Source of the DNA: Naegleria gruberi
Taxonomy: Eukaryota
Strand: one strand, 5' to 3'
DNA: 64,000 bases
Assembly (NCBI GenBank): GCA_000004985.1
Contig: GG738930.1
In this document: in pieces, positions 13,161-57,255 of the stretch
Numbering within the stretch: the first letter of the stretch is position 1
Layout of the letters: every line of letters starts with the position of its first letter
Made by a program: the position numbers and the translations under genes
The notes under the pieces: generated by a model
The model's database searches: none
What the model saw: only the letters and a program-made list of their open reading frames with translations
Told to the model about the DNA's origin: nothing

Positions 13161-14882
13161 ATGACATCGAATAACTCTTCATCCTCGAATGGTGGGGATA
13201 GCACTTCTACTACTTCAGAAACCACAACGACAGAGAGAATGAATTCTCCACAACAAATGTCATTAACTGTCAACAATAATCAGCCGCAAGCCAGTGTTTC
13301 AACACAGTGTGAAATCGAATTGGCAGATATAAAGGATAACCAGATTTCTCCTAACTCTGCTGAAGAACATATTAAATCCTCTGAAACTAGAACACCAAGT
13401 GATTGTGATGACGTCTTATCCACTACTGCTGAAGTTAACTTTGATTGTCAGTCACCAATGAAAAAGCCAACATCAAAGTGTGATTTTGAAATTCCAACTT
13501 CACCACAATCGTTGAATCCAGCTGGATCCAGCACCACTAACCTAATTTCTGATGATAAGCTTGTGAAAAAGTTACCAAACAATAGCAAGTCAGTCACAAT
13601 GATAACACAAGAAGAACAAGCATTCGATACCAAAACTGTAAATAGTTACCAAAGCAAAGCAACCTCTAAGACATCAAAGACATCAGGCGGGTTTTCAGTT
13701 GCCACTTGTTGTGGTACTGTGGAGCTAAACTGTATTCGTGTCTTGTCAATTCTAGGTATGATGATCAACATTATTGCCTTTGTTGCCATGGCAGTTGTGA
13801 TTTCAGTTGCCTTCTCCGTCTCCACTACTAACGAAACTGAATTGTTGATACTCAGAGCTGATGCTAACTTGATGAGTGAAGTAGCTGCTTCTTCACTAAA
13901 GATTGCCGTGTATTCTAATCAAACCGAACCCTATATTTCCAGATGGAAAACAACTAAAGATAAGGCCGTTGCAGCTATTGCTTCGATCGTTGATGCCCTC
14001 CCACCCGATGTTTTCCTCAGACTTCTCAATGGTTCTACATACTTCAACTCTAGCGCAATTCCAGTCAATCCCTATGAACAACAAGTGGTAAACCTGTTAA
14101 AATCAGGCAAGCAGAAGGAAGCCATCACTCTCATTGAAAGTAAGAATTATACTTCCTACTCTCTTGGATGGAAGAATGTGGTTTCTAACTTGTTGACCTA
14201 TGCAAAGGAATTGGCAAGAAACAAGAATGATTACTTGTTGACCTCTTCAAGTGTCAACATGGGTCTCATTGGTTTTTCAATTCTGCTGGTTGTTCCAATT
14301 GTGTTGGCCATCTTTATTATGGCCATCAATAGAGAAGGTGTTTCTCAAAAACGTCTCAAAAAGGCAAATGCTGTCATGTTACTCGACACACTGCAGGATC
14401 ATGCACTCAAAGCACTCTTTAGAAAGCATTGTGAAACTGAAAGATGTTTGGAATCATTTGAATTTTTGGAAAAGATTCATTACTATAAGGAATTCTGTAA
14501 TGACTCATTCGATATTCAAGTCAAACTTTATGACAGTAGTCACCCAACACAAACAGAAAAGAAGTCCCTCGAATCCGATCTCAAGGAAGTTGAACAAAAG
14601 AAGTATGAGGTTGCCTTTGAAATTTTCACAGAATTTATTGATGAACATGGAGAAAAGGCACTTGTTGTCACAAGCCATTTGTGTGAAGATGTCAAGATGA
14701 AATTGGATCATTTCAATACAGGACAATCAGACCATTTGAGTGACGAACTATTCGACAAACTTCAAACTGAAGTTGCCATCCACTTGTTGGATTGCCATGC
14801 CAGATTCAAGCAAAGTATTGCATTCCAAAAGAAGATGAAAATTCAAGATATTCGTTCCAAAACCAAGATTACAGGTAAATGA
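13161..14882 (+). CDS. two-TM membrane protein with C-terminal RGS (regulator of G-protein signalling) domain
   Basis: ATG at 13161. Ser/Thr-rich N-terminus. TM1 is LSILGMMINIIAFVAMAVVISVAFSV, followed by a ~150-aa loop with N-glycosylation sequons, then TM2 GLIGFSILLVVPIVLAIFIMAI. RGS signature: ALFRKHCETERCLESFEFLEKIHYYKE ... EIFTEFIDEHGEKALV ... LFDKLQTEVAIHLLDCHARFKQS. Confidence 0.65.
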   Translation: MTSNNSSSSNGGDSTSTTSETTTTERMNSPQQMSLTVNNNQPQASVSTQCEIELADIKDNQISPNSAEEHIKSSETRTPSDCDDVLSTTAEVNFDCQSPMKKPTSKCDFEIPTSPQSLNPAGSSTTNLISDDKLVKKLPNNSKSVTMITQEEQAFDTKTVNSYQSKATSKTSKTSGGFSVATCCGTVELNCIRVLSILGMMINIIAFVAMAVVISVAFSVSTTNETELLILRADANLMSEVAASSLKIAVYSNQTEPYISRWKTTKDKAVAAIASIVDALPPDVFLRLLNGSTYFNSSAIPVNPYEQQVVNLLKSGKQKEAITLIESKNYTSYSLGWKNVVSNLLTYAKELARNKNDYLLTSSSVNMGLIGFSILLVVPIVLAIFIMAINREGVSQKRLKKANAVMLLDTLQDHALKALFRKHCETERCLESFEFLEKIHYYKEFCNDSFDIQVKLYDSSHPTQTEKKSLESDLKEVEQKKYEVAFEIFTEFIDEHGEKALVVTSHLCEDVKMKLDHFNTGQSDHLSDELFDKLQTEVAIHLLDCHARFKQSIAFQKKMKIQDIRSKTKITGK

Positions 14883-15213: not shown

Positions 15214-18200
15214 TCAATTATATATACTTTGAGTAATCCAAGTATCCAATGGAATATTGATAGGACTTGAATATTTATCCAATGCAATCTCTTCTCCTTT
15301 CATTAGATTTTCAGAAAAGAGAGATTTTGATTTTTCACTTCTCAGTTCCTTGTAAGTTGAGTTTGAGATGTGAACTTGATTGACCTTTCCTGTTGCTTCC
15401 ATCATTTGAGCAATTTCAACTGCAGGTCCAAATAAATCATATGTTCGTTTCACTTTTCCAACAACTGCTGCGATCACATCATTTCCAGTGTGAATTCCCA
15501 ATCGAACTGATAATAAATGATCAGTATTTGTGTAGGTAGTATATTGTTTCATGTTTCGAATCATTGCAAGACCTCCCTTTACAATGTTATCTGCATGATT
15601 GGTCTCACTCTTCGAAAGACCTGAAGCAACAAAGTAACAATCACCAATGGTCTTGATTTTCTCCAAATTCAGTTCAGTACAAACATTGTCAAAGAGTGTG
15701 AAAATGTCATGTAAGATTTTGACAACATCTTTTGGTGATTTTCTTGAAGAGAAATCAGTGAAACCAACCATATCACAATATAACATGGAGCAGGAATCGA
15801 TTGTGTCAATGACAGTCTGGCCCATGCTCAATCTTTCTGCAATACTTTTTGGGAAAATCTTTTCTGCAATTCTTGTCATGTGTTCTTCTGGTGTTGACAA
15901 TGATTTGTAATCTCTGAGATAGGCCACATAGGATGGTTTTCCATCAGTGACAATTTGTGAAATTTTAATTTCCAAAGAAATGATCTTTCCAGATTTGGTT
16001 TCTCCCTTCACTTTCCGTGTTACATCCACAACGCCATTTTCTCTACTTCGACATCTATCCAAATAACTGTCATGTTTCAACCTATCTCTACTGTTGCAAA
16101 TAATCTTGACATTTCTTCCAACAATTTCCTTTGGTTCATATCCAAATGTAGATGAAGCTGCCTTGTTAAAAACTTGAATAATTCCCTTGTCATTAATTGT
16201 AATGACTGGAATGATACTTAGATCAGTAATAGCATGTTTGAAAGAGTTTGTAACAGCTGCCTGATGTTCATTATCAATTTCCTTGAAGAATTTCAAATAG
16301 ACACAAAAGTGAATTTCTTGAAGTTTCTTAATTGGAATAATTCTTGCAGTTACAATGAAGAATTGTTTAAGCATGGTAGCTTTGGCTCTGAGATATCGTT
16401 CCTCTGAGAGTGATTTCCTTCTTGTTGCTTTTTCTTCCTCACTCAATTGACTATATGGCTTAATATCATCGAGATAGTTCTGATCAGATCCAATTTTATC
16501 TGCCTTCAGAGTGCTATTCTCTGTTGGACCCAAGAATTCATACATGGCTTGATGAAGTTCAACGGAGGCATCATCCAAGAATAATTCACTAACATGTTCT
16601 CCCATTGCACTGAATGAATAAACTCCAAATAAATCCTCTGCTTCCTTATTAAGAAACTCAATGGATCCAAGTTTGTCAAAAACAAGAACTGGAAATCCAC
16701 AATGAACAAATTGATGAACTAAATAATTCAATTGAGAGAATTCTACCTGATGTGTAAATCCAACTTCATCACAAATTTCTCTCTGACTCAATACAGTAGT
16801 ATCTGTTGTTGACCTGATTGAAATTTCACTTGTTGTATCAGAAAAGTTTCCATCAGATTCTTCCAATCGTTGCTTCAATTTTGAAAGGAATCTTTGATTA
16901 ATTGACTGTTTGTATCCTTGATCATTTCTTGACATTCCTCTATCCACAGGAGGTGGTCGTTCCTGAGTGGTGTTTGTTGTTGGTGTTGGTCTTTGTTTTG
17001 GTACAGAACTAGCTTCTCTCATATAGACACTACTCTCTCTTTGAAGTGCCCCTCTTGGAAGCTCAGAAGATCTCGTCACTACACTATTTTCTCTTTGAAG
17101 TTGACCACGAGGTCTTTCAGAAGATGACGACTGATTCCTGACAGAGTTTTCTCTCTGTAAAAATCCTCGAGGTGCTCCACTTGTCATGATGCTGTTCTCT
17201 CTCTGGAGAGTTCCTCTTGGATTTTGAGAGGCAATCATCAGACTATTCTCTCTTTGTAAAACAGAGGTTGCTCTCCTATTAGAGGAAGTCATTTCAGTAA
17301 TTGGTGTCTTTTCTGTTGTTGAGGTAAAAACTGAATTTTCTCTCTGGAGAGTTCCTCTCTTAATCATTTGTGAATTTGATGAAACCAGAGGAGGAGGAGG
17401 AGCCTGTTGTTGAAGAATATCCTTTGTAACAAGTAAGGAAGATCCCTCTCTGATGAGTATTCCTTTTGGTTTTGATGACTCGCCTGCTATTGAATTATCT
17501 CTAATCAATCGAAAACTTGGCTTTAAATCCACACCCTCCAGAATATTCCGAGAACTTGATGTATTGATTGATGAGGAATCGAGTGGAGCTGATGATACAG
17601 AGCTTGTTGGTTGCTGTTGATTTTGCTTCTTTGCCAAGAATTCTGCAAAAGCTAGTTGATGTTCATCGAGTAATTGTTGAGTGGAGGAGCTTATCTCAAC
17701 ACTGCCTCCACTACCAGAATTCATGTTATTCTTTGGAGTTGGTTTGAAATTCACACCAGAGAGAATATTCCTCGAACTCTGACTATTCAATGTGCTTTTT
17801 GGTGATGAAGAATTTTGAAGAGAAATTGCTGATGGTGAGGAAACTTCAGGTTGAGCTTCTTGTATGGTTATCTTTTTAATCATGGTACCTCCAGAGCCAG
17901 CCAGTATATTCCTCGAGCTCTGGCTATTCAATGCGCCACCTGTTGTTGCTATCTGTTCCTTCTTTTGTGCAATGTATTCCCTTAATTCCCGATCATCATC
18001 ATCATTGCTTAATTGAATTTTTCTGGATGATGAAGAGAAGCCATTGGCATTCAGTGGAATCTTTCCATTGTTTGCCATCATGATGGAAGAATTGGCAAAT
18101 ATATTTCTCGAACTCTGATGATTGAATTGTGCTGATGATTGTTGAGCTGTTGTTGGAGTTGTTTTCATCTTTTGAGCCAAAAACTCCTGTAAGGCCTTCT

Positions 18201-18231
18201 CATCTTCATTGTATCCATACAAATCGTCCAT
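15214..18231 (-). CDS. PAS-domain adenylyl/guanylyl cyclase (class III), paralogue 1
   Basis: Catalytic motifs MLYCDMVGFTDFSS, KIKTIGDCYFVASGL, GIHTGNDVIAAVVG and FGPAVEIAQMMEATG. PAS/PAC region upstream. The track start at 18369 is TTG; the ATG at 18231 (MDDLYGYNEDEKALQEFLAQK) aligns with the paralogue start MTNYDDDDDDKALQEFLAKK. Confidence 0.85.
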   Translation of the reverse strand: MDDLYGYNEDEKALQEFLAQKMKTTPTTAQQSSAQFNHQSSRNIFANSSIMMANNGKIPLNANGFSSSSRKIQLSNDDDDRELREYIAQKKEQIATTGGALNSQSSRNILAGSGGTMIKKITIQEAQPEVSSPSAISLQNSSSPKSTLNSQSSRNILSGVNFKPTPKNNMNSGSGGSVEISSSTQQLLDEHQLAFAEFLAKKQNQQQPTSSVSSAPLDSSSINTSSSRNILEGVDLKPSFRLIRDNSIAGESSKPKGILIREGSSLLVTKDILQQQAPPPPLVSSNSQMIKRGTLQRENSVFTSTTEKTPITEMTSSNRRATSVLQRENSLMIASQNPRGTLQRENSIMTSGAPRGFLQRENSVRNQSSSSERPRGQLQRENSVVTRSSELPRGALQRESSVYMREASSVPKQRPTPTTNTTQERPPPVDRGMSRNDQGYKQSINQRFLSKLKQRLEESDGNFSDTTSEISIRSTTDTTVLSQREICDEVGFTHQVEFSQLNYLVHQFVHCGFPVLVFDKLGSIEFLNKEAEDLFGVYSFSAMGEHVSELFLDDASVELHQAMYEFLGPTENSTLKADKIGSDQNYLDDIKPYSQLSEEEKATRRKSLSEERYLRAKATMLKQFFIVTARIIPIKKLQEIHFCVYLKFFKEIDNEHQAAVTNSFKHAITDLSIIPVITINDKGIIQVFNKAASSTFGYEPKEIVGRNVKIICNSRDRLKHDSYLDRCRSRENGVVDVTRKVKGETKSGKIISLEIKISQIVTDGKPSYVAYLRDYKSLSTPEEHMTRIAEKIFPKSIAERLSMGQTVIDTIDSCSMLYCDMVGFTDFSSRKSPKDVVKILHDIFTLFDNVCTELNLEKIKTIGDCYFVASGLSKSETNHADNIVKGGLAMIRNMKQYTTYTNTDHLLSVRLGIHTGNDVIAAVVGKVKRTYDLFGPAVEIAQMMEATGKVNQVHISNSTYKELRSEKSKSLFSENLMKGEEIALDKYSSPINIPLDTWITQSIYN

Positions 18232-20322: not shown

Positions 20323-21733
20323 ATGAAAAAAATACCTCAACAAGACCATCCTCCGGATACGGAAGGGAGTAATTTGCTTGCTGACAGGATTTTTGTGTTA
20401 GAGAGAGCAATTAAAACCTACCAAAAGGAAAACAATAATCTCCGTGACTATCTTCAACAACTTGTAAATATATGTAATGGTCACCCGTTATTGAATAATA
20501 ATAATAATAATCCCATCAAACCTGTAAATAATAATCTGATCAATACCCAACCATCAGAAAATGAAAATCTATTTATTACTAGAAATCCAGTAAATGTTAG
20601 AAATCTACCAACTAGTAGAAATTTAATTAATGGTGGAAATTTCTTGACTGAGACAGTTCAAATATGCGATAGTAATCCTAAAAATAGAACTGTCAGTTAT
20701 GCTGATATTACAAGATTAGCTCCTATTAAAGCTCAGCCATCTATTAAGAAAACAATAGCAAAACAAAAATCAACAACTAATAAGATGAAAAGAAATATGG
20801 CAACTAATACTAGACCTAACAAACGTAAATCTAATTACAATCTTAATCAAATAATTAATGTAATTTGCTACAAAGATGTTACTAACGAATTTGTTGAACA
20901 AATTACAGACCTACTCGGTGACTCTGTAATCATTAGAGTTAATCGATACTGTAATAATATTATTAATGTAATTTGCCCTGATGAAACCAGTTATAAAGAG
21001 TGTTTCAATCAATTAGTGCAAGGAAGTCATGGAGGAAAATTCATATTAGAATGCTTTCCATCTCCAGCAATCTTTAATCCTAAACCTTTAGCACTTTCAC
21101 ATACTACTTCCAGTAAAACTACTCACCTTAAAATGCTAGAAAATATTATTAGCAAATATATATTGGAAGATAATATTTCTGTTGAGGAACTCTACACTAA
21201 CTATTCTCATAACCAATTTATAATTAGAATATCATTTGAGGATCAAACTATTTGCTCTCAAATGGCACAAAATCTTGGTTTAAATCAATATAAAACTATT
21301 GAACAGATTAGAAATGAAACCAAGGAGACAACATCTCAATGCTCTATTCCAATTAATTATACTAATGATGAAATTAAAAAAGGAATTATCCAAGCATTTA
21401 CCAGAATTAATAAGACTCTCCAAGAAAACAATCTTACCATTACTGATACAACTAACCGCTCTGGAACAACTAAATACAAATTAATTAAAATTGTACACAA
21501 TGATATGGATGAAATGAATGAATTTTGCAAGAAATCTATCTCCCTAAAGGATAAACAAAGAAATCATAGTGGAAATGGATTTAAATTTAAGCCATCTATT
21601 CAAATATTGGATTCTAAAATCCAAAGGAAAAGTAAATTACACCCATATCTTCCTCAATTAGAGTTATCACCTATTGATAAACTCGTATTTATTGATGAAC
21701 CAATTAGACAACTACCAACTACTACTATTGTTA

Positions 21734-21738
<5 letters not shown>
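20323..21738 (+). CDS. LINE ORF1 protein (coiled-coil nucleic-acid chaperone-like)
   Basis: 471-aa ORF beginning 20 nt inside the element. The N-terminal heptad region is LLADRIFVLERAIKTYQKENNNLRDYLQQLV. Confidence 0.6.
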
Positions 21739-21770
<32 letters not shown>

Positions 21771-21772
21771 TC
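21736..21772. repeat. (AAT)n microsatellite, ~12 units
   Basis: Directly visible trinucleotide run at the ORF1/ORF2 junction of the LINE; it encodes a poly-Asn tract. Confidence 0.9.
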
Positions 21773-22020
21773 ACAAATGCAAATAATAGAATTGATAAAA
21801 TTGAAAAAAGTATTATAGATTTAACTCAACAGCTCATGCTCACTAATAACAATATTAATAATATAGTTGAAATACTTAAACAAGCAAATATTATTAGACC
21901 TAATAATGATAACAAAATGTTAAATAATCCTAATAATAAGATGTTAGAGGATTCTAATAATAGTAATAATAATATGTTAGATGATGAATTAAGTTCATCA
22001 TCTAATCCATCTACTCTACC

Positions 22021-25000
22021 TTGAGTAGAACCACAACAAGTTTAAGGCTAGCGTGCTATAACGTAAATGGTTTATATAAGCACGCAAGCCATAAATCAGT
22101 TACTCCTGAATTGAAATCCATGTGTTTAACACATGGAATTCACTTTATGAGTTTAACTGAAACTCACTTAAATACCCCAGAACTAGAAATAGAAGTCAAA
22201 AACTCTGGATCAGGGTACCTATTATTTAACTCATTAATGAATACAAGAAAAGGTTGCAAAGGTACTGCAGCTATGCACTTTCTAAATAATTATAGAAAGC
22301 GCAATATTACAAATAATAATCTCGTACCTGGAACATTACAATGGACACGATTCGAAAGTCGTGGAATTCCAATTAACATCTTCACAATTTATCTTAGTGG
22401 AAGATAATGATTATGACAATGAGGAAGAAGCTCTTAATAGCTTTATTAATGCTGCCCTCACAATTAAAGATGAACATATTATTTTAAGTGGTGATATTAA
22501 TATTGATACAAGAAATCCCACTAGTAAAAGAGAAAAAGACTGGCTATGGATACTTAATCTACTCAGACTAACCGAATTACAAACATCCAATAATACTTGG
22601 ATAAGAAGAGTTCAATCTAATATTTTTGAATCGAAACCTGATCATGTCTTTGTGTCAAAAGACATAAGAATAGTTAAAGAAGTGCTCATGCCTCCATTAA
22701 CCACTAATGATCACATTCCTTTCTATATAGATCTCGAATTTAAATCTAACTTAACCTGGAGACCTTACTTTAGTAAGAGTAAGAGAAAGAAAATATATGA
22801 AGAAATTAATAAGTCTCCTATAGATAATTTCAAAGAGTTAAATCAAGCTATCTTGACTCAAATTAACAAATATGGCTCCAAAACTGATAGATTAGGTGTT
22901 GGTCGAATCTCAACAGCCTATAAAGAAGAAATTCAAGATTTGGAAGAAGAAATTCTTCACAAATTAAATAATGAAACTATTTCTCAATCAGAAATATCTG
23001 AATTACAAACATTACTGAAAGAAACTCATATTAAAAATGGAAAACATATTAAGGAAAAATTGATAGAAGAATTCAATGATAGAACTTCATCTAAAATGTA
23101 TCAATTTGATAGAATGGTTCATTCCAAAGAAATTAAATGGAAAGATATTAATTTCGAAGAAGAGGAAATTTTAGAATACTTTACAAATAAGTTTACCTCG
23201 ACTAATCAACTTCCAACATTCATTCCAAGTAGATCAACTATTAAAGAAGGACCAAATTGGACCAACTCGATCCATATAGAAGAATTGGAAAAAGCTTTAA
23301 AACGTATGAAATCAAATACCCCTGGTCCTGATCTAATTTCTCTGGATATTATTAAGCATCTCACAGAAAAAAATCAGAAAATTTTATTGAACGAATTTAA
23401 TAATTGCCTAAGAATAGGTGATATCTCTGAAGATTGGAAGCAAGGATGGGTGAAACTCATTCCTAAAAGAGATATCACTTCTCTCAGTGACATTCGTCCA
23501 ATCACTATTTTACCTACATTTTATAGAATTTTATTTAATATTATAGCCTTTCGACTTAGATCTTGGGCATCATCTCATATAAATATGAGACAACAAGCAT
23601 TTATTACAGACAGAAACACTTTAAATCATGGTGTCCTTCTATCATCATTAGCTATGAAAACTAAGAAAAGAACCTTCATTCTTGTTAACCTAGATATTGA
23701 AGGAGCTTATGATGCTGTAGAATTGTCAGTGATTAAAATGGCACTAGACCATTGTAAATTTCCTAACGAACTCACTCAATTTATTATTAATGCCTATAGC
23801 AACCATGAATTGAGCCTAGAAATTGATAATCATCTATCCACAAAATTTACAAAAACTCGAGGAATCCCACAAGGATGCCCATTGGCTCCTCTTATATACG
23901 ATTGTATCACACAATTAATTATTGATAAAGCAATAGATAAATGGAAAATACCAATCAAACCAAACAAACTATGTGCTAATGATATTGCACTCTGTTGCTT
24001 TGCAGATGATATGAATGTTGTCTGTGACAGATATGCCAAATACAATGACAGGCTAGATAACATACATGACTGGCTAGGTCAACTACTTTTTAAACTAAAT
24101 GCAAAGAAATCAGTTGCAACTCTACTACCTAAAACAAGCAAAGTATCTCCCAAAATTAAGGGTACACCTATTCCTAAACAAAAAAACCTTAGGATACTTG
24201 GACATTATCCATGGGATGATATTCTGGTTCGACAAGATATCCAAAACAAAATTGAAAAATTTACCAAATCTTTGAAATTTCTCCCATTATTCAAAATTGA
24301 ACCAGATAACCTTAAACAAATTATTCACGCTAAAGCTATTAGCTTATTTACACACCTTTCTAAAATTAACTTAATTCCTCTGAAAAAGGCACAACAAATT
24401 GATATAGCCATTAGAGGAGCAATTAGAAGAAAACTATATATGGACAGGAAAACACCAACCAGCTTATTCCACTTACCATTAGAAAAAGGTGGATTAGGAC
24501 TACCATCTATTGTAGAATTTTCTGAAAGAATGAACCTAAGAACCATGACCTTAATTGCTAACAGTAACAATTTACTCGTCAAGAAAGCTTTCAAACATGG
24601 TATCAAGCACTGTGAGGAAACGAAAGACAATATTTATTCGAAATGGCTACTAGTACTAAAAGAATACAACCTCACACTTAAGAAAAATGAAATGAAATTC
24701 AAGTTGAAAAAAATCAAAACAGGAAATAATTTTGATATTCACACTGACGGATCAAGACTCGAATCAAAGACTGGAATGGGGATTAATATCTATGATTGCT
24801 CCAATATGAACACTCCAGTTAGATCTTTATCCCTCCATATTAATGATCAATATTCAAATAATGTAGCTGAAATATGCTCTATTATTACAGCAGCTAAAGT
24901 TATCCCAAGAGACTCCAAGATTAAAATCCATACTGATAGTAATGTGGCAATTGAAGTTCTCAAAGAACGATATAAGGGAAACTTTCTACCACTAAAAAAA

Positions 25001-25705
25001 GCCTTCTTTAAAACCATTAAGGATAGAAAACTTGAATATGAATTCAAGAAAGTTGAAGCTCATAAGGATAAGGAAAATATCAAAGTTGATTTATTGGCAA
25101 AGAATGCAACTCTGAAACCTAAAATCTTTGATATCCGTAAACTACTCTTTAATCAATATATCCTCACAAAGAACGATATTATAATCTTTGACTATAAGAG
25201 GTTAACTACCTCACAACATTTAAGGCTAATGCTTGACAAGATAGAGAGTCACCCCAATCACATACCTAACCTAGATTGGAACTCTATCAACGTCAGCTAC
25301 CTTAAATCCCATTTGTCTCCTAAATCTAAATATTATATTTGGAGAAACTCTTCAAATGCCCACATCAATTTTGGTGAGGGTAAAAGTTTCTGTCATGATT
25401 GTAACACAGAATCTGACCTTAATCACTATATTCATGAATGCCCTGCTCTGGATAGTGCCAGATACTTTTGCTTGTCAAAAATATCTGATATTCTTGATCA
25501 GAGAGAGTGTAAACTCACTCATATTCAATTCAGACCAGAAAAGCATCACCATGTACTCTTCTTCCACCATTCTGGAACCACATTCTTCGAAGATGGATAC
25601 GTACAACAATACCCAGACATTGCAGAGAAATGGCCTGAGATCCAGGGAGCCATTTCTAACTTTGTCGGCCGCTCCTATAGATATTATTATATTGACTCAA
25701 TGTAA
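22021..25705 (+). CDS. LINE ORF2 polyprotein (APE endonuclease-RT-RNaseH), interrupted by a +1 frame change near 22361-22407
   Basis: The APE domain begins in frame 1 (22021-22407) and continues in frame 2 (22361 onward, SGDINIDTRNP). The frame-1 ORF begins at TTG, not ATG. An (AAT)n-rich frame-2 ORF at 21674-22024 overlaps the ORF1/ORF2 junction. Confidence 0.65.
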
Positions 25706-28613: not shown

Positions 28614-29933
28614 TTACACAATAATCAAAATGAGTAGTAAAGCAAGAATGATCCAATTTCCAATTAGCTTCTCTGCTGATGAAACCTTTGTGCTATTTGC
28701 TGGTTGAATAATTGGTTGACTTACGGTTGGTGTTACCATTGGCGTCACAAAAGTTACATAGACCAATCCTTCAGTTTCCTTCACTGTGAATGTATTATCT
28801 TTTGAAACAGTTACATTTCTTCCAAAAATATCTACTACTGAACTGGCACTATTTGCCTTAATATTAACTGAAGCTCCAGTTTCAGTTGGCAACAGGACAA
28901 TAACTGAATCATTTGAACTCTTAAATCTCATAGCAGTTACAGAAGGGTGTTCAATTTGAATATATCCATCAAATAATCTATTTCTTACGATTGAACTCAA
29001 TTGCTTGACGGCTTTCATGGCTGGCTTGTCAGTATAATTATTGAAAAGCAAACCGAAATTGTGTTCTCTATTTGTTGGGTCAACTCCATCATTTCTCAAA
29101 TCGTAATAAATGTAAATTGGGAAACCAACTGCGCATGAGGAGAGTAATCTTCCTACTACATTATTAGCATGAAGTCTCAATGCTGCTTCGTCCAATCCAT
29201 TCGAGTTTGAGTCGAAATCAGTTGCTGTGAGACCCCATTCAGTATCCCAAACAGGTGGCACCGTAGAAATCAAAGATTTTTGAGCACTTGTCAATGTAGA
29301 TGCCTTTCCTTGAAGAGTGGCATTGATGTTATCATTAATAATTGATCTGAACTTTCTAGTCAAATCTGGGAATCTTCCGAATGGTGATTTAGGACTACCA
29401 ACTCCATAAGGATGCAATCCTATTCCAGAAAACAATTGAGAACCATTCTTTGAGGCAGCACCACCTTCAGATGTGAAACCTCTCACAAAAGTATACGAAA
29501 AACCAGCGACACCAGTTGTAGAAACTTGAGCATTTGGGTTTCCCTCTCGAATGGCAGCAACTGCAGCTTTTGATAATGCAGCATAAGTAACTGGAGTGAA
29601 TCCCTGAAGATCTGCCTCATTATAAACCTCGAAAATAACATTCTCATTAGCGTAATGCTTAGCAGCTGCTCTACTATAATTAGCAAAAGCTTCGATGGCG
29701 ATATCGGTAGTTGGTGGAGTAGAGGCACTTCCAGTGTAGAGAGTATTGGAATAGGTTAGAATGAACAATGCTTTCAATCCTCTCAATTTCAATGCAGTCA
29801 ACAATGTGTCATAAGAAGCAAAGTTGTAAACTTGTTTGGTTGTTTCAACTGATGACCAGAACAAATCCATTCTAATCCATGAGAAACCACCTGCTTGACA
29901 GCATCTAATCCCTTATCATCACTCGAAAGAATA
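28614..29933 (-). CDS. putative glycoside hydrolase (TIM-barrel, GH5/GH39-like) with C-terminal hydrophobic anchor; N-terminus lost in an assembly gap
   Basis: The 418-aa ORF plus the upstream frame run into the N run at 29934. The C-terminus LIGNWIILALLLILIIV is a TM or GPI-anchor signal. The family assignment is weak and based on motif similarity only. Confidence 0.4.
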
Positions 29934-29983
29934 NNNNNNNNNNNNNNNNNNNNNNNNNNNNNNNNNNNNNNNNNNNNNNNNNN
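29934..29983. other. assembly gap (50 N placeholder)
   Basis: It separates the truncated hydrolase gene from the truncated cyclase paralogue; both are incomplete at this junction. Confidence 0.95.
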
Positions 29984-31976
29984 CTTCTGGTGTTGACAAT
30001 GATTTGTAATCTCTAATATAAGCAATGTATGAAGATTTACCATCTTTTAGAATGTGGGATACTCTGATTTCTACCGAGATGATCTTGCCTGACTTGGTTT
30101 CTCCCTTCACTTTCTTTACCATATTGAGAGTATTCTTATCTTTGGTTTTACATTTTTCCAAATAGCTGTCATGTTTGAGTCTATCCTTCTTATTACAAAT
30201 AATTTTGACATTTCTTCCAACAACTTCTTTAGCTTCGAAACCAAAAGTGGATGAGGCAGCCTTGTTAAAAACTTGAATAATTCCCTTGTCATTGATTGTA
30301 ATAACTGGAATAGTAATCATTTCTGTTACTGCTTGATTCAGTGAGTTGGTCATTTGTGAATATTTGCCATTTTCTGCTTGTTGAGCAAACCTCATGTATA
30401 TACAAAAGTGAGTTTCTTGTAATTTTGATATTGGGATAATCTTGGCGGATACTGAAAAGAATTGCTTGATTGTTGTTGCTTTGGCTCTCAAAGTTCTTAA
30501 CTGTGAAAGGGCCCTTCTTCTCTCCAGTTTTTCTTCCTCACTGATTTGATTGTAAGGTCGAATATCATCGAGATAGTTCTGGTCTGAACCAATTTTATCT
30601 GCCTTCAGAGTGCTATTCTCAGTTGGACCCAAGAATTCATAAATTGCCTGATGTAGTTCAACAGAAGCATCATCCAAAAACAATTCACTCACATGTTCCC
30701 CAAGAGCACTGAATGAAAAGACTCCAAATAAATCCTCGGCTTCCTTATTCAAATATTCTATTGAGCCAAGTTTGTCAAAAACAAGAACTGGAAATCCACA
30801 AGTCATGAATTGAGACACCAAATGATTCAACTGTACAAATTCTACCTGATGTGTAAATCCAACTTCTTCATTAATTTCTCTATCACTCAGTAGGGCAGTT
30901 TCTGTCGACCTCACAGACATAACAGAAACTTCGCTCACTGTATCAGGAAAATCATCAAATCCTTCATTCTTCGTTTTCATTTTGGAAAGGAATCTCTGAT
31001 TAATTGACTGTTTGTAGCCTTGATCGTTTCTTGACATTCCTCTTTCGAGTGGAGGTCTTGCTCTGGGCACAGATTGTGATCCCTCCCTCATCATTAAACT
31101 GTTTTCTCTCTGTAGTGGCCCTCTCTTTGTTGGAACATCAGACAAGGGTTTATCAGATAGCTCATATTCATTATTCTTCCTAGTAATAAAACTACTATTC
31201 TCTCTTTGTAACATTCCTCTCCTAGGAGCAGATGGTGCTGTTGTCATTGTAGAATTACCTCTCAATAGAGGAGGTGGTCTCGATAGTGTGCCATCGTTAT
31301 TCGTCAGCAGAGAAGAACCTTCCCTCCTTAACATTCCTCTTGGTTTTTGGGAGATAGTAGAATTTTCTCTTGTCAGTTTTGGAGCTACTCTCAACGATGA
31401 AGAAACTCCAACTTTAAGCATTGCAGAGGTATCCAAACCTTCAAATATGTTCCTAGAACTTGCTGTATTTTTCGACGATACCTCATACATGGATTGTTTT
31501 TTAGACATGAACTCATTAAGTGCTTTTTGATCTTCGTCTTCCTTCTCCTTTCTAGCAGAGGCAGGTGTTTCTGTTATTGTAAATGGAGCAAGAAAGTCTG
31601 AACCACCTACTCCATCATTATTTGGAATCCGTGTTGGTACTTTAGGTTTTACTGGACTAAACCCTACCAATACATTTCTCGAACTTTGAGTATTGAAAGC
31701 TCCAGGAGACGGTTTTGACTTTTTTGCTTGGAGAAACTCTTGGAGAGCCTTCTCATCCTCATCTTCATCATCCTTATTGTTTTGTTTTGTTGGGGAGGTT
31801 AGAGGTTTTTTAGGAGAAGTACTTTTAGAAAGAGCAGAAGCATCAAACGAAGCAAATATATTCCTCGAACTCTGATGATTAAAATTGGAAGAGGGTGAAT
31901 GAAGGTTTGCTGTCTTCTTCTTGGCTAGAAATTCCTGTAGAGCCTTATCGTCATCATCGTCATCATAATTTGTCAT
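29984..31976 (-). CDS. PAS-domain cyclase paralogue 2 (N-terminal regulatory region and PAS domains only; catalytic domain missing in the gap)
   Basis: ATG at 31976 (MTNYDDDDDDKALQEF...). It is collinear with paralogue 1 through ...YIRDYKSLSTPE, where the N run begins. The nucleotide sequence at 29984-30060 matches 15889-15965. Confidence 0.8.
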
Positions 31977-32975: not shown

Positions 32976-35280
32976 TTACTGTTTCATCAACTTGGATTGA
33001 ATAATTTTGGTGAGGTGTAAAATCTTATTGTTATCCTCTTTGTTTTCTTTCGTCAATTCGGACAAGTAAGACAATAAATAAAAGGCTCTATTATACAGGG
33101 CAGTCCACTTGGGATAACCAATCATTTCCCAACAACAAGCTTCTTTGGTCAACTCGATAGCCGACAAATACATTACATTGGTAATGTCTTTGCATTTTGA
33201 TGGCTCTAATAATTTGGTTTTGGAGTGTAGTTTTTCTGTCCTCTTGAAAACATCATTTAATAAATGATTCATGAATGACATGAGAGCTGTTTTGCGATCA
33301 GATGGTGGAATTCGAGAAAGAAAAGGGGTGCAGTTCTGTAAAAGTTGAGTTGATCTCAAGTAGAGAGCAAAAGATTCAGTTATTTTCGAGGTTCTTTCAA
33401 AATTGAGAGCCATCTCTGCAAGAACCCAACTGATTTGAAGATTTCGTTCTACATTATCCAAAGTTGGCTTGTCCTCTGGGGATGATGCTAGCTCTGAAAA
33501 ATCAAATATTACAATTGGATATTTTTCCAATGAGGATTCTATGGTATAAGTTTTAGAAATGTACAAATCTGGATTAGGTTCAAATTTTTCATCAAAGAGA
33601 ATAATTAAATTCTTCTTTTCTGTTGAATCAGTGAGGGATGGTGGTTGTTGAGTAGATGTTGATGATGATGAAGCAACAATTGGGGAAGGGGTAGGAGTTG
33701 AGTTTGTTGAGATATCAGTTGTTGAAATAATGATATCATCTGGAGTTGATGGTATTCCTTGAATTTCCAAAGGATCTATAATGTCATACTCTTCTTCCAA
33801 GCTCGAAAGTTGAATGACATTTGGTTCACTGCTCTTTCGTTGCTCGTTTCTAATATTTACAATGTAAGGATGATTGTAAAATTGATCGAAATCAAATCTT
33901 GAATTAGGATCAAATGTCAATAATCCTTTCAATAAATCAATCAATTCAGGCGAAGTGTCTCTAGTTGGAAAGGATGTTCCACTCATCACTCTCCTATATT
34001 GTTGAGCCATATCGTTTGCTATGAAAGGTAAATTACCATAGCATAATAAATAAATAATTACACCAATTGACCATAAATCAGCCTTAATATCATAGGTAAC
34101 TTGTTTTCCAGCCAAGTAATGCATAATTTCAGGTCTTTGCTCCAATGAATAAAATAGAAATTACAAAAACTTACGCCATAAACATTGGAGTTCCACAAAC
34201 TGTCTGAGCTAATTTGTTTGTATCCAATTCCTTTGCAAGTCCCAAATCTGCAATCTTTAACGTTCCAAAATCAATATCATAATCATCATCTCCATTATCT
34301 ATTATTTCCATTGGTTTGGAAAAGAGTAAATTTGCTGGTTTTAAATCTCTAAACAACAAATTAGTTCAAAATGCAAGCAATATAACCTACCTATGCATAA
34401 TCTGTTTTCTATTCAAATATTCAACTCCTTCAGATAATTGGTAAATCAACTTTTTCAAAAATCTCTCTTTCATTCTTCCATTATTATTGAACACGAGTGG
34501 TGATCTCTTCTTAATCAAATCATTCAAATCACCTCCTCCACAAAATTCCAACACAACATAACAATTGTGATGCGTCTCTAAAAATTCAACCATTCTAATG
34601 CAATAATCCGAATCCAAATCTCTCATAATCTTAATTTCACTCGAAAAGTATTTGAGATTGGAAGAATTCAAAATTTTCTTATCAATCACCTTGATGGCAA
34701 CTTGTTGCTTTGTTATTGAATGCATTCCTTCATAAACACTTGCATAACTTCCTGATCCCAACTTGCTATCAATAAATATCAAAAAGTCACCAACTTTCTT
34801 TGCCTTTTCCTTCTTGTCTGATTGATAAACAAGACCTCCACTTGATTGTACACGATGAGTGGTTGCCACTCTCTTCTTCTTTTGTTCTGGTGTTACAACT
34901 ACAGTTGTTCCTGATGATGCAGGTGATGATTTACTATTTACATTTCTTGGTGATGATGATGGAGATGCTGATGAAGGCACTTTGAATTCGGAAAGGTTGA
35001 TATCAGATGATGATCGAATAGAATCTTCCTCTCCCACCTTGACAAGTCTTGATGACTTGTTCGTTTCATCCAATTTACGTGTTATTGTTGTTGATACTCC
35101 AATAGTTTCAATTGTTGTTGTTGTTGTTGCTGTTGCTGTTGTGGCAGCAGAATCAAATGAATTATTGCCATCACTACTACCCGATGATCCATTATTATTG
35201 TCATCATCCACCACTACTGAATCATCATTATTGTTTTCTTCAACGATGAAAATTCCTTCACGAATTCGTTTTGTTGACAT
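32976..35280 (-). CDS. serine/threonine protein kinase with long C-terminal non-catalytic region; join(32976..34134,34175..34348,34391..35280), ~740 aa
   Basis: Subdomains LGSGSYASVYEG, AIKVI, HRDLKPANLL, DLGLA and GTPMFMAPEI are reconstituted across two short introns (42 nt GTAGGT..TTTAG and 40 nt GTAAGT..CAAAG), both in phase. ATG at 35280. Confidence 0.8.
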
Positions 35281-40539: not shown

Positions 40540-41394
40540 TCTATCCCTAGGTAAAATAATTCGGTTCTGTTCAATCTTGACATCTTTTACTTCGAAGAGA
40601 GTTGACAACCTATTCAACCGTATGAGGTTTCCAGAAGAAAAAATTGCCATAATATTCCATTCTTCATTGCCAGTTTCAATGATTCGTTTCATGTCCAATC
40701 CTGTTAGATTTGTTTCATGAGAATTTGAAGAATCTCTTCTTGCAAATTGAAATATCTTTTCCGAGTCTATTAGATGGGAAATAGTGGAAATACTGACCAT
40801 ACTTTTTAATGCAGTAAAGCTTGGGTCAAACAATATGGACAATAAAAAAGTTAAAAGTGGTAGACAAGTTGGAGCAAGATCATATTTCCTGAATGTAAAG
40901 CATGGTTTCAATTTGACTTGATTATTGTGTAGAGTTGATATTTTCGAGAGGGATATTATCTTGCAGAGTGAAACAAGAGTCGATAATTCATTTTGAATTT
41001 CATCTTGATTGTTACCATATTTATATTCTAAAAATGTCATAATATCAAAATTAAATATAAATTCCAACGAGTTTTCGCCTCTCCTTGGTAGTAGAGAGAA
41101 AAGATATTGAAACACTCTCACATAATCAATACAATCATTATCCAAAAATTCATATTCACTTCCACCAATAAAATTCCTAATTAAATTAAAATTAGAAATG
41201 GCCTTCTCCAATCCAATCAACACATCTTCCAAGTAGTATTTCTTTACAAATATATATTTGTAAATATATGAACTTGTATGAATAGCAATGTACCATGTTC
41301 TACTGACAAGGCTACATTTAATTTGATCCGATAGGTCCAAATATTCCGTGATGACTGATACGAGGTCTTGATGAAGAACGTCTTGTTGATTCAT
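40528..41394 (-). CDS. F-box domain protein
   Basis: N-terminal [25 protein letters not shown] is a typical F-box. ATG at 41394 overlaps the stop of the upstream chromodomain gene (ATGA). Confidence 0.6.
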
Positions 41395-42284
41395 TTTTTC
41401 TTACGATTTTCCTGTTCAAAATTGTGGATCAAATCTTCTGAAATGTTCTCAAGTGGTTCCCAAGTATTATCAGAGTCAGGATAACCAGCCCACTTAACAA
41501 GGTATTCAACCTTTTTCCTTCTTGTTCTCTTACCCACTAATTTTTCTACTCTGTATTGTCCATCGTCCAGCTCGTCATCACTTTCTAAAGTTGGTGGTTC
41601 AATAACTTGTGCTGTTTTTGGTTTTCTGATTGGTGTTCTCTTTGGTGTTTCTGTTTTGGCCTTTTTGGAAGAAGAAGCTCCACCTCTCTTGATGGATTTA
41701 CGTTTCTTTGGAACTTCTTCCTCTGATATTGGAGTTGTTACTTCTGTTTCGAGTCGTTTCTTACTAGGGGTTGAAGGAGGAGGTAAAATTGAAGTTGATG
41801 GTCCTGGTTGTTCACCCAGAACTTCCTTGATAAGTGAAGACTGTGCTTCGTGAACACCTGTCACTTCTGAAAAGTAATTGAATATATTTGCTAATCCAAT
41901 TGGCAGATCAACACCTCTATCATCCTGATTTAAATAATCCAAAATCAACAATTGATTATAATATTGAAAATGTTGGTCTCTGGTAAAACTGGAACCAATT
42001 TTTCTCTTTTCGATATCTAAATAATATTTAGCACAAGTTAATAGTTTTGTCTGACTATTAATCAAAGCTCCCAACATTGGAGTATCCGATCCACTTGTTG
42101 TTGTTGTTCCATTACTACTTGAAGTTCCAGCTTTTCTTCTACTAGTTGCAGTTACTGTTGTTGTTGTTGAAGATTTTGATGAAGAAGATTTACTAGCAGG
42201 AAGCTTAACTTCAGGTTCCTCGTCTTCACTACTACTACTGAGTGTGTAAGTTGCCGAAGCTTCTTTCGATCGTTTTGTAGCCAT
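41391..42284 (-). CDS. chromodomain protein (HP1-like chromo domain at C-terminus)
   Basis: C-terminal [38 protein letters not shown] matches the chromo-domain consensus. Ser/Thr/Lys-rich N-terminus. Confidence 0.7.
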
Positions 42285-48100: not shown

Positions 48101-48687
48101 TTCTGTAGAATGCTTCCTCCCTCATAGTTTCTTCCATTCTTGCACTGATTGAATCCCAATTATCCACAACTTCATCGAATGAAACAGCATTCTTCATGGC
48201 AGCATTGGACTTACTGTGCTTCATTAATTGAGATGTAGAAGTAGCATAGGGAAGAACTCTATTTTCTGGTTGTTTTTTCTTAGTTGACTTTGCTTTCTCT
48301 TCCTCAATTTGGTTGGCTTCTTCATAAAGTTCTGCAGCCATTTCCAGTTCAAATTTGAAAGTTTCTAAGAAGTGAGCATATGCTCTCATTAAAGTCTTGT
48401 TATTCATATTGGAACTCATACTATTCTTGTATGCATTTTCACAATAATGTGTAAGATTGTGAGCTTGTCTGTTGATGTCCTCTAATTTTGTCTCTGAAGG
48501 ATTTTCGCTTGAAAGCTCTTTAAAGAAATCCTGATGTAGATTAATGATCTTTGCTTGTCTCTTCTCAAGTTTTTCCAATATTTTTTGAAGTTCAAAACTC
48601 AAGGCATCACCATCTTGTGATTGCACTTCAATTTCCTTACTTCTCAAATAGAAATGGAATAGTTGGACGAAACTTGGACTATGTCTC
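45117..48687 (-). CDS. receptor-type adenylyl/guanylyl cyclase: TM1, ~430-aa extracellular region, TM2, PAS, class III cyclase domain (first codons lie in the gap)
   Basis: Catalytic motifs VTIFFSDMVGFTKMSS, KIKTIGDAYFAVSG, GMHTGPCVGGVIG and YDLWGDTINTASRMEST. TM helices FLPFIVISILIILFMLILSLIV and LAIISTILGSLAVLVFGWLSYL. The ORF continues open (…RHSPSFVQLFHFYLRSKEIE) into the N run at 48688. Confidence 0.85.
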
Positions 48688-57094: not shown

Positions 57095-57255
57095 GTTTAA
57101 TAAAAATCTATTCGAAAAAAGTTTAGTTTCGAATTGGATTCTTTTCCTTTTTACTAAATTTGATTCAAACATACCAATTTTGGAGTCGTACTGGAACCTG
57201 TAATTAGATGTTGTGATAATTGGAAAGTTTTGAAATTGCGTTTCCAATAAAAAAA

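What the first reader, a model, noticed from the sequence alone, without database searches (positions are those of the whole stretch)
16900..18231. Arrays of repeated RxxS and SSRNI motifs in the N-terminal regulatory arm of both PAS-cyclase paralogues
Paralogue 1 carries six copies of P-R-G-x-L-Q-R-E-N-S-(V/I/L) (RGTLQRENSV, SVLQRENSL, RGTLQRENSI, RGFLQRENSV, RGQLQRENSV, RGALQRESSV), preceded by four copies of (K/E)ALQEFLAQK...QSSRNI(L/F). Paralogue 2 (30990-31976) has the same two motif types in the same order. R-x-x-S in a conserved context is the minimal consensus for basophilic kinases (AGC/CaMK group). The arrays look like a multi-site phospho-regulatory module, for example cyclic-nucleotide-dependent kinase feedback, attached to a PAS-cyclase. 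I do not recognise this motif pair from described cyclases.
Basis: seen in the sequence. Interest (0 to 1): 0.55.

Follow-up and report, generated by a model that had tools for sequence, protein, structure and literature searches.

The report
Conserved motif arrays on Naegleria cyclases
Two neighbouring Naegleria gruberi PAS-adenylyl-cyclase genes carry a long disordered N-terminal arm studded with two kinds of short repeated motifs; selection has kept these motifs, one kind looks like a multi-copy kinase target site, and whether they are phosphorylated is untested.

Summary
The window is Naegleria gruberi. Paralogue 1 (15214-18231, minus strand) is XP_002669217, and paralogue 2 (29984-31976) is cut by an assembly gap.

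Both proteins start with an arm that AlphaFold predicts to be disordered. The arm carries:
- Three "A" modules: an acidic patch, a KALQEFLAxK helix, then FNxQSSRNI(F/L)xG.
- An array of "B" sites, (P)RGxLQRENS-hydrophobic. There are 8 Φ-x-R-[DE]-x-S sites in paralogue 1 and 5 B-type sites in paralogue 2.

The copies are not DNA tandem repeats. Synonymous codons among copies match only at the random level, and the key Ser uses both TCN and AGY codons, so the motifs are old and under purifying selection. Arrays like these occur only in these two proteins and one soil-metagenome fragment among 1.84 billion representative proteins.

The B unit resembles, in register, the single RGISRRFAS motif that all relatives carry just before the first PAS domain. 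The array therefore looks like an amplification of that ancestral site.

The motif is Φ-x-R-x-x-S-Φ, the LxRxxS type used by CaMK, PKD and CDPK kinases. It is not a PKA/PKG site: there is no RRxS and position -2 is acidic. Phosphorylation is inferred only. I rate it a modestly interesting new variant of a known kind.

The parts
15214..18231 (-). Paralogue 1, complete single-exon gene (1005 aa; XP_002669217 / NAEGRDRAFT_82217): disordered arm, PAS-A, PAS-B, class III cyclase.
   Evidence: Searches give the Pfam hits: PAS_4 at 512-565, PAS at 666-774, Guanylate_cyc at 809-969. One search gives a 100% match to P0001, and one search gives the accessions.
17533..18207 (-). A-module region of paralogue 1. 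Three units of acidic patch plus amphipathic helix (18163-18207, 17956-18000, 17620-17664), each followed by (F/L/I)NxxSSRNI(F/L)xG (18091-18126, 17896-17931, 17533-17568). There is also one helix-less extra SSRNI copy (17755-17790) and a degenerate SSRKI (18007-18042).
   Evidence: One search gives the coordinates and codons. One search shows the three helices (aa 8-22, 78-96, 183-204) are the only arm segments with pLDDT 68-80. Searches show positional conservation in paralogue 2 and in P0122.
17020..17520 (-). B array of paralogue 1: eight Φ-x-R-[DE]-[NGS]-S-Φ sites. Two are degenerate (17482-17520, 17431-17469). Six are canonical (P)RGxLQRE(N/S)S (17323-17361, 17233-17271, 17182-17220, 17134-17172, 17074-17112, 17020-17058).
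   Evidence: One search shows the whole stretch is coil with pLDDT 25-33.
16873..16944 (-). Juxta-PAS element DRGMSRNDQGYKQSINQRFLSKLK (aa 430-453). It is 100% conserved between the paralogues, and its INQRFLS part aligns with the family-wide motif [KR]RGIS[RS]R[FL]AS.
   Evidence: alignment columns about 465-490. One search shows a B-unit matrix hitting the family motif in register.
16537..16698 (-). PAS-A core (aa 512-565).
15910..16236 (-). PAS-B (aa 666-774).
15325..15807 (-). Class III cyclase catalytic domain (aa 809-969). Both metal Asp and the Lys/Asp pair are present, but the Asn/Arg pair is replaced (GPAVEIAQMME).
29984..31976 (-). Paralogue 2, from the start codon to the assembly gap (arm, PAS-A, PAS-B). 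Its cyclase domain is not in the assembly.
   Evidence: N run at 29934-29983. One search shows P0121 is a chimeric model.
31437..31955 (-). A-module region of paralogue 2: helices at 31911-31955, 31716-31760 and 31491-31535; SSRN(I/V) motifs at 31848-31883, 31662-31697 and 31437-31472.
31089..31388 (-). B array of paralogue 2: KLTRENST (31350-31388), PRGMLRREGSS (31305-31343), LLRGNST (31248-31268), RRGMLQRENSS (31185-31223) and KRGPLQRENSL (31089-31127).

Best explanation
The N-terminal 430-490 residues of both paralogues form an intrinsically disordered regulatory arm. It carries two classes of selected short linear motifs.

Class B, (P)RG-x-L-Q-R-E-N-S-Φ, is most likely a multi-site phospho-acceptor array for a basophilic kinase of the LxRxxS type (CaMK, PKD or CDPK-like). 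It appears to have arisen by serial amplification of the single R-G-x-x-x-R-x-x-S element that every member of this Naegleria/Willaertia cyclase family keeps just N-terminal of PAS-A. Phosphorylating several equivalent sites next to the PAS-A N-cap would tune the PAS-PAS-cyclase dimer, or its binding to a partner, in a graded or thresholded way.

Class A (acidic patch, KALQEFLAxK helix, FNxQSSRNI(F/L)xG; three positionally conserved copies) is most likely a docking module for a protein partner.

Shown here: the motifs exist, they are under purifying selection, they sit in a predicted disordered region, they are restricted to this lineage, and B resembles the family motif. Inferred: phosphorylation, the kinase class, and any effect on cyclase output.
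For: - Real and non-random. The other ORFs of the window (about 50 stop-free stretches) hold only two [LIMV]xR[DE]xS in total, against 8 and 5 in the two genes.
- Not DNA repeats. Tandem Repeats Finder finds nothing.
- Under selection. Among the 8 canonical B units the same-codon fraction at identical residues is 0.45, against 0.43 expected from codon usage. The invariant Ser is encoded by TCA, TCT, AGT and AGC, and Leu by CTC, TTA, CTT and CTA. This points to old copies held by purifying selection rather than slippage or gene conversion.
- Old paralogues. dS is at least 1.2 in the PAS region and saturated in the arm. Motif columns are 60% identical against 36% for the rest of the arm.
- Independent conservation. 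Soil fragment P0122 is only 49% identical to paralogue 2, yet keeps all three A units in place.
- Disorder. AlphaFold gives pLDDT below 50 over aa 1-494, except the three A helices.
- Lineage restriction. A phmmer search of the arm against 1.84 billion representative proteins finds only self, paralogue 2 and P0122. A third PAS-cyclase in the same window lacks the motifs.
- Ancestry. A matrix built from 12 B units picks [KR]RGIS[RS]R[FL]AS in register as its best hit in 7 of 10 relatives, with shuffle p <= 0.02 in 5 of them (alignment).
- Kinase class. LxRxxS is the published consensus for PKD (PMC11634986), CPK/SnRK (PMC11174488) and MARK/AMPK-family kinases (PMC6890249).
Against: - There is no phosphorylation evidence of any kind.
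- Q(-4), E(-2) and N(-1) are invariant in 7-8 of 8 canonical copies. A kinase consensus alone does not explain this, and it fits a specific binding interface at least as well.
- There is no hydrophobic residue at +4, so the MARK/AMPK sub-type fits poorly.
- E-x-S-Φ also fits a Polo-like kinase consensus (my own knowledge), so the kinase class is ambiguous.
- The cyclase domain lacks the canonical Asn/Arg pair, so even its catalytic output is uncertain.
- The 7 in-register hits to the family motif are not independent lineages. Only the P0002-like group is individually significant.
- I could not screen the whole N. gruberi proteome for single-copy occurrences of the motif.
Confidence: 0.5

Rival explanations
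1. The B units are phosphorylation-independent docking motifs: a multivalent platform for a repeat-domain or oligomeric partner, or for intramolecular binding to the PAS or cyclase domains. On this reading the conserved Ser is a contact residue rather than an acceptor.
For: Six consecutive residues (L-Q-R-E-N-S) are invariant or nearly so across 8 copies despite saturated synonymous divergence. That is more constraint than a Φ-x-R-x-x-S kinase consensus needs. The copies are spaced 16-30 residues apart in a disordered chain, which suits multivalent binding.
Against: The degenerate copies (LIRDNS, LIREGS, LTRENS, LRREGS, LLRGNS) keep exactly the Φ(-5), R(-3) and S(0) positions while Q, E and N vary. 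This is the pattern expected of a kinase consensus. The family's ancestral motif (RRFAS, RRLAS, RFLS) also keeps only R-x-x-S.
Confidence: 0.25
2. The arrays are PKA or PKG feedback sites: the cyclic-nucleotide-dependent kinase phosphorylates the cyclase that makes its activator.
For: R at -3 and a hydrophobic residue at +1 are shared with PKA and PKG sites. In relatives the ancestral family motif is RRGIS / RRFAS, which is more PKA-like. Feedback on cAMP enzymes is a known design, for example the PDE4 UCR1 site (my own knowledge).
Against: There are zero R-[RK]-x-S in either arm. An acidic residue occupies -2 in 12 of 13 B-type sites (the exception is LLRGNST), and Leu sits at -5. This matches the CaMK/PKD-type pattern rather than the PKA/PKG pattern (PMC11634986, PMC11174488; the PKA preference is my own knowledge).
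Confidence: 0.08
3. The repeats are functionally neutral remnants of past duplications in a fast-evolving low-complexity linker.
For: The arm is Ser-rich (17%). It is poorly conserved outside the motifs, and its length and copy number differ between the paralogues. Relatives function with short arms lacking the arrays.
Against: Amino-acid identity is kept while synonymous sites are randomised, and the Ser codons switch between TCN and AGY. The three A units are conserved in position in a 49%-identical environmental homologue. No DNA-level repeat is detected.
Confidence: 0.05
4. The arm is not translated, because the start codon is mis-annotated or the region is an intron or 5' UTR.
For: There are no expression data. 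The arm has no Pfam or PDB match.
Against: The arm is 465 stop-free codons continuous with the PAS domains, in a 36% GC genome. For the arm, pN is 0.35 against pS 0.77 between the paralogues. All three sequences begin M-x-x-Y-D/G...DDKALQEFLA at the same position.
Confidence: 0.03

Closest known systems
Multi-site LxRxxS regulatory regions, for example the class IIa HDAC N-termini phosphorylated by PKD, CaMK, MARK or SIK (HDAC5 is listed among LXRXXS PKD substrates in PMC11634986; the rest is my own knowledge)
   Same: Several copies of Φ-x-R-x-x-S in a disordered N-terminal regulatory region of a signalling enzyme. Leu at -5, Arg at -3 and Ser at 0 are all present here.
   Different: The sites here are near-identical 10-mers (RGxLQRENSΦ), in up to 8 copies. 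They lack the Pro at +2 and have an acidic residue at -2, so they do not fit the canonical 14-3-3 read-out. The host protein is a PAS-cyclase. No phosphorylation is shown.
Disordered multi-phosphosite regulatory domains such as the CFTR R domain (PKA) or the Sic1 CDK-site cluster (my own knowledge)
   Same: A disordered segment with many equivalent kinase-consensus sites, which permits graded or thresholded control.
   Different: Those sites are heterogeneous in sequence and experimentally proven. These are near-perfect repeats of one motif and are only predicted.
Isoform-specific disordered N-termini of mammalian membrane adenylyl cyclases, and the PDE4 UCR1 RRESF feedback site (my own knowledge)
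   Same: Regulatory linear motifs placed N-terminal of the catalytic machinery of a cAMP enzyme.
   Different: There is no sequence similarity. This protein is soluble with PAS-PAS-cyclase architecture, and its sites are not of the R-R-x-S type.
Other members of the same Naegleria/Willaertia PAS-PAS-cyclase family (P0002-P0011)
   Same: 40-48% identity over the PAS-PAS-cyclase region, the same substitution of the catalytic Asn/Arg, and an acidic Ser-rich stretch plus one basic R-G-x-x-x-R-x-x-S element before PAS-A.
   Different: They have one copy of the basic motif and no ALQEFLAxK / QSSRNI modules. Only paralogues 1 and 2 and the fragment P0122 carry A modules, and only paralogues 1 and 2 are seen to carry the B array, because P0122 ends before that region.

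Membership tests
Class III adenylyl/guanylyl cyclase (PF00211) | Catalytic-domain profile match above the curated threshold. | tested here: met
   150.7 bits against a cut-off of 21.9 for paralogue 1. Paralogue 2 is cut by the assembly gap before this domain.
Class III adenylyl/guanylyl cyclase (PF00211) | Six canonical catalytic residues: two metal-binding Asp, the Lys/Asp substrate pair, and the Asn/Arg transition-state pair. | tested here: not met
   Both Asp (CDMVGFT, IGDCYF) and the Lys/Asp pair (EKIKTIGD, TYDLFG) are present. Asn is replaced by Glu and Arg by Met (GPAVEIAQMME against GDTVNIASRMD). All family members share this.
PAS domain sensors | PAS profile matches above threshold. 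| tested here: met
   PAS_4 at 512-565 and PAS/PAS_9 at 666-774 in paralogue 1, with equivalents in paralogue 2. One search shows both fold as PAS in the AlphaFold model.
LxRxxS basophilic kinase substrate sites (PKD, CaMK, CPK-SnRK type) | Hydrophobic residue at -5, Arg at -3, Ser/Thr at 0. | tested here: met
   9 sites in arm 1 and 7 in arm 2, with 0 of 2000 shuffles reaching these counts. The consensus comes from PMC11634986 and PMC11174488.
LxRxxS basophilic kinase substrate sites (PKD, CaMK, CPK-SnRK type) | The serine is actually phosphorylated. | not testable with these tools
   The searchable library holds no Naegleria phosphoproteome and no paper on these genes.
MARK/AMPK-type sites (LxRxxSxxxL) | Additional hydrophobic residue at +4. 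| tested here: not met
   in the six canonical paralogue 1 units, +4 is S, A, S, Q, R and R. The consensus comes from PMC6890249.
PKA/PKG consensus sites (R-[RK]-x-S/T-Φ) | Basic residues at both -3 and -2. | tested here: not met
   there are 0 R[RK]xS in either arm. Position -2 is Glu or Asp in 12 of 13 B-type sites.
Canonical 14-3-3 mode I/II motifs (R-S-x-pS-x-P and R-x-x-x-pS-x-P) | Pro at +2, and a non-acidic residue between Arg and pSer. | tested here: not met
   +2 is F, M, M, R, V, Y, L, L, F or M, never Pro, and Glu or Asp is at -2. The motif definition is from my own knowledge.
DNA tandem repeat or low-complexity expansion | Head-to-tail nucleotide repeats, or codon identity between copies. 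| tested here: not met
   Searches find no array. One search shows codon identity at chance level (0.45 against 0.43).
Any described protein domain or repeat family for the arm | A significant Pfam or PDB sequence match. | tested here: not met
   nothing above the gathering score even when listing to E = 10; no PDB chain with E up to 10.

The most novel reading that the evidence does not exclude
The whole Naegleria/Willaertia PAS-PAS-cyclase family has a single juxta-PAS phospho-switch (R-G-x-x-x-R-x-x-S). In the paralogue 1/2 lineage this switch has been amplified into a 5-8 site array that works as a phosphorylation counter. A Ca2+-dependent LxRxxS kinase would then set cAMP synthesis with a threshold. 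The three helix-plus-QSSRNI modules would recruit that kinase or its phosphatase. This would be a previously undescribed, self-contained Ca2+-to-cAMP coupling device in a free-living excavate.
Probability: 0.15. Interest if true: 0.55.

Novelty: new variant of a known kind. Interest (0 to 1): 0.33.

Why it matters
Naegleria encodes an unusually large set of cyclases, at least 81 across the genus (PMC9928731), and how they are regulated is essentially unknown. A selected array of near-identical candidate kinase sites next to the sensor domains gives a concrete handle for experiments: a defined peptide, defined serines, and a natural series of relatives with one site, five sites and eight sites. 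It could be used to ask how phosphorylation is wired into cAMP signalling in a deep-branching eukaryote, and how multi-site regulation evolves by amplifying a single site. As it stands this is a sequence-level prediction in two lineage-specific proteins. It is not a new principle.

Tried and rejected
Both returned nothing, not even the known positives P0001 and P0121. I treat both as uninformative rather than as evidence of absence.
- Metagenome scan with the arm alignment: 600 pattern matches, none confirmed.
- Metagenome scan with a two-copy degenerate DNA pattern for QRENS...LQRENS: 35 loci. On translation all were out of frame, full of stops or unrelated.
- Pfam at E up to 10 and PDB sequences at E up to 10 for the arms: nothing meaningful.
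- Contig look-up for P0122: not on record.
- Literature searches for a Naegleria phosphoproteome and for the gene and protein accessions: nothing.
- Rejected on the motif patterns, using definitions from my own knowledge: PP1 RVxF, IQ or calmodulin-binding, UIM and WH2 readings of the A unit, and 14-3-3 mode I/II for the B unit.
- The neighbouring kinase gene (32976-35280) could not be assigned to one family. Gene adjacency in a eukaryote is not evidence of a functional link.
Full report
**Identity and anatomy.**
- The window is Naegleria gruberi. The minus-strand ORF 15214-18231 is 100% identical to the 1005-aa predicted protein XP_002669217 / NAEGRDRAFT_82217.
- Pfam finds two PAS domains (aa 512-565 and 666-774) and a class III cyclase domain (aa 809-969).
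- The second copy starts at 31976. It is 74% identical to the first through the PAS-PAS region.
- The second copy runs into a 50-N scaffold gap at 29934-29983, so its cyclase domain is not in the assembly.
- The public model for it (XP_002669221, 1089 aa) is spliced across the gap onto an unrelated GH5-like ORF.

**Checking the observation.** The counts need correcting as follows.
- Paralogue 1 has six canonical (P)RGxLQRE(N/S)S-Φ units, two degenerate ones upstream (FRLIRDNSI, PKGILIREGSS) and a trailing YMREASS.
- Paralogue 1 has three, not four, acidic-patch helices (EDEKALQEFLAQK, DDDRELREYIAQK, EHQLAFAEFLAKK).
- Paralogue 1 has four SSRNI motifs. One of them lacks a helix, and its DNA shows it to be a younger copy of its neighbour.
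- Paralogue 2 has three helix-plus-SSRN(I/V) units in the same order. It has only two canonical LQRENS units plus three degenerate ones.
- In composition-preserving shuffles, [LIMV]xRxxS occurs 9 times in arm 1 (1.06 expected) and 7 times in arm 2 (0.54 expected), and 0 of 2000 shuffles reach these counts. SSRN occurs 4 and 3 times against 0.07 and 0.03 expected.

**Low complexity, or selected motifs?**
- Tandem Repeats Finder sees no nucleotide repeat in either arm.
- Among the eight canonical B units the amino acids L-Q-R-E-(N)-S are invariant. Synonymous codons agree only as often as the gene's codon usage predicts (0.45 against 0.43).
- The central Ser is encoded by TCA, TCT, AGT and AGC, two codon families that are two mutations apart.
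- This rules out recent slippage and concerted evolution. It indicates long-term purifying selection on each copy.
- The two paralogues are themselves old: dS is about 1.2 in the PAS region and saturated in the arm. Within the arm, motif columns are 60% identical against 36% elsewhere.
- AlphaFold2 on a 12-sequence family alignment gives pLDDT below 50 for residues 1-494. The exceptions are three helices at 8-22, 78-96 and 183-204, which are exactly the ALQEFLAxK units. The whole B array is coil at pLDDT 25-33.
- This is the classic signature of short linear motifs in a disordered region.

**Distribution.**
- A full phmmer search of the arm against 1.84 billion representative proteins returned only itself, paralogue 2, and a 147-aa fragment from a soil data set (P0122, SRR3989338).
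- P0122 is 49% identical to paralogue 2. It keeps all three A units in the same positions.
- The annotated proteomes of N. fowleri, N. lovaniensis and Willaertia magna are in that collection, since their cyclases appear. None of them has such an arm.
- A rough neighbour-joining tree puts paralogues 1 and 2 as sister to a clade that includes Willaertia and the other Naegleria species. The lineage therefore looks old but sparsely retained or sampled.
- Within the window, the other stop-free stretches of at least 150 aa contain no in-frame LQRENS or SSRNI, and only two [LIMV]xR[DE]xS in total.
- Those stretches include a third, unrelated PAS-cyclase at 45117-48647.
- I could not test single-copy occurrences across the whole proteome. 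The two word-indexed searches missed known positives and are uninformative. Two metagenome scans found nothing real.

**Origin of the B array.**
- All relatives (P0002-P0011) have short arms with one conserved basic element just before PAS-A, [KR]RGIS[RS]R[FL]AS. It aligns with QSINQRFLSKLK in the window proteins.
- A position-specific matrix built only from the 12 B units picks that element, in register, as its best hit in 7 of 10 relatives. Shuffle p is at most 0.02 in five of them.
- In this register the RG, the Arg at -3 and the Ser at 0 coincide.
- The five significant hits are close relatives of one another, so this is suggestive rather than proven.
- It supports a simple history: a single juxta-PAS R-x-x-S element, present family-wide, was serially duplicated in the paralogue 1/2 lineage.

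**Mechanism.**
- The full B pattern is Φ(-5)-x-R(-3)-[DE]-[NGS]-S-Φ(+1). The degenerate copies keep exactly Φ(-5), R(-3) and S(0) while the other positions drift. This is what a kinase consensus predicts.
- LxRxxS is the published consensus for PKD (PMC11634986). It is an enriched motif of plant CPK/SnRK kinases (PMC11174488) and, with a hydrophobic residue at +4, of MARK/AMPK-family kinases (PMC6890249).
- The +4 hydrophobic residue is absent here.
- Neither arm has a single R-[RK]-x-S, and position -2 is acidic. The PKA preference is my own knowledge.
- E-x-S-Φ also fits Polo-like kinases (my own knowledge).
- The canonical copies also keep Q, E and N invariant. That is more than any minimal consensus needs, so a phosphorylation-independent docking role is a serious rival.
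- My best reading, at confidence about 0.5, is a multi-site phospho-acceptor array beside the PAS-A N-cap that tunes the dimeric PAS-PAS-cyclase. The three A modules would act as docking elements.
- Phosphorylation, the kinase and the effect on output are all inferred. No Naegleria phosphoproteome and no paper on these genes were found.

**Comparison with known systems.**
- In how it would work, this resembles multi-site disordered regulatory regions such as the class IIa HDAC LxRxxS clusters, the CFTR R domain, and the N-termini of mammalian adenylyl cyclases.
- It belongs to no described domain or repeat family. It fails the defining features of PKA/PKG, MARK/AMPK and canonical 14-3-3 motifs.
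- I class it as a new variant of a known kind. It is a tidy, testable case of a single regulatory site amplified into an array. It is lineage-restricted and so far purely predicted, hence the modest interest score of 0.33.

Noticed in passing
window 28614-31976 (gap at 29934-29983): The public gene model XP_002669221 / NAEGRDRAFT_82220 (P0121, 1089 aa) is chimeric. It splices paralogue 2 across a 50-N scaffold gap onto a GH5-like ORF (28614-29870). The Pfam match of that ORF starts only at profile position 60, so the gap hides the 3' end of the cyclase gene and the 5' end of the glycosidase gene.
   Followed up: partly
window 15325-15807 (-), and relatives P0002-P0010: The cyclase domain keeps both metal-binding Asp and the adenine-type Lys/Asp pair, but the transition-state Asn and Arg are replaced (GPAVEIAQMME against the canonical GDTVNxASRME). 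All Naegleria/Willaertia family members share this. The best PDB match is the C1 half of AC9 (100 bits) rather than the C2 half (56 bits). The family may have low activity as a homodimer, or may need a canonical partner.
   Followed up: partly
window 45117-48647 (-), possibly continuing upstream across the N run at 48688-49877: This is a third, unrelated PAS-cyclase gene: TmcB-type TPR, hydrophobic segments, PAS, then a cyclase with the canonical GDTINTASRMES. It has none of the A or B motifs and no [LIMV]xRxxS at all.
   Followed up: partly
window 32976-35280 (-): A Ser/Thr protein kinase gene, split by one apparent intron, lies about 1 kb upstream of paralogue 2. The N-lobe best matches MARK2/3/4, SIK3, ULK3 and CDPK structures. 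The C-lobe best matches ULK1/2, MELK and CDPK. MARK-family kinases use LxRxxS sites, but the adjacency may be coincidence.
   Followed up: partly
window 20323-25705 (+) and 41391-42284 (-): Retroelement-like ORFs lie between the two paralogues: an ORF at 20323-21738 followed by a reverse transcriptase plus RNase H ORF at 22361-25705. A chromodomain ORF lies further on. Several large N runs (43546-44624, 48688-49877, 53307-53920) and AT-rich stretches show the scaffold is fragmentary in its second half.
   Followed up: no
window 13161-14882 (+) and 57220-59766 (+): Two RGS-domain proteins are encoded in the same 64 kb as three cyclase genes. This makes the stretch locally rich in signalling genes.
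   Followed up: no
relatives P0002, P0003, P0005, P0006 (N-terminal 40-70 aa): These relatives share an N-terminal helix-like motif, QEAIK(K/R)xLLLAKMAQ(K/Q)Y, followed by an acidic run. It loosely recalls the acidic patch plus ALQEFLAQKM unit of the window proteins. MAFFT did not align them and I did not test the resemblance.
   Followed up: no
tool behaviour: The word-indexed protein search failed to return P0001 and P0121 when queried with their own arm or with a motif profile, although both are in the collection. The index or its filters probably discard this compositionally biased region. Negative results for such queries should not be trusted.
   Followed up: partly
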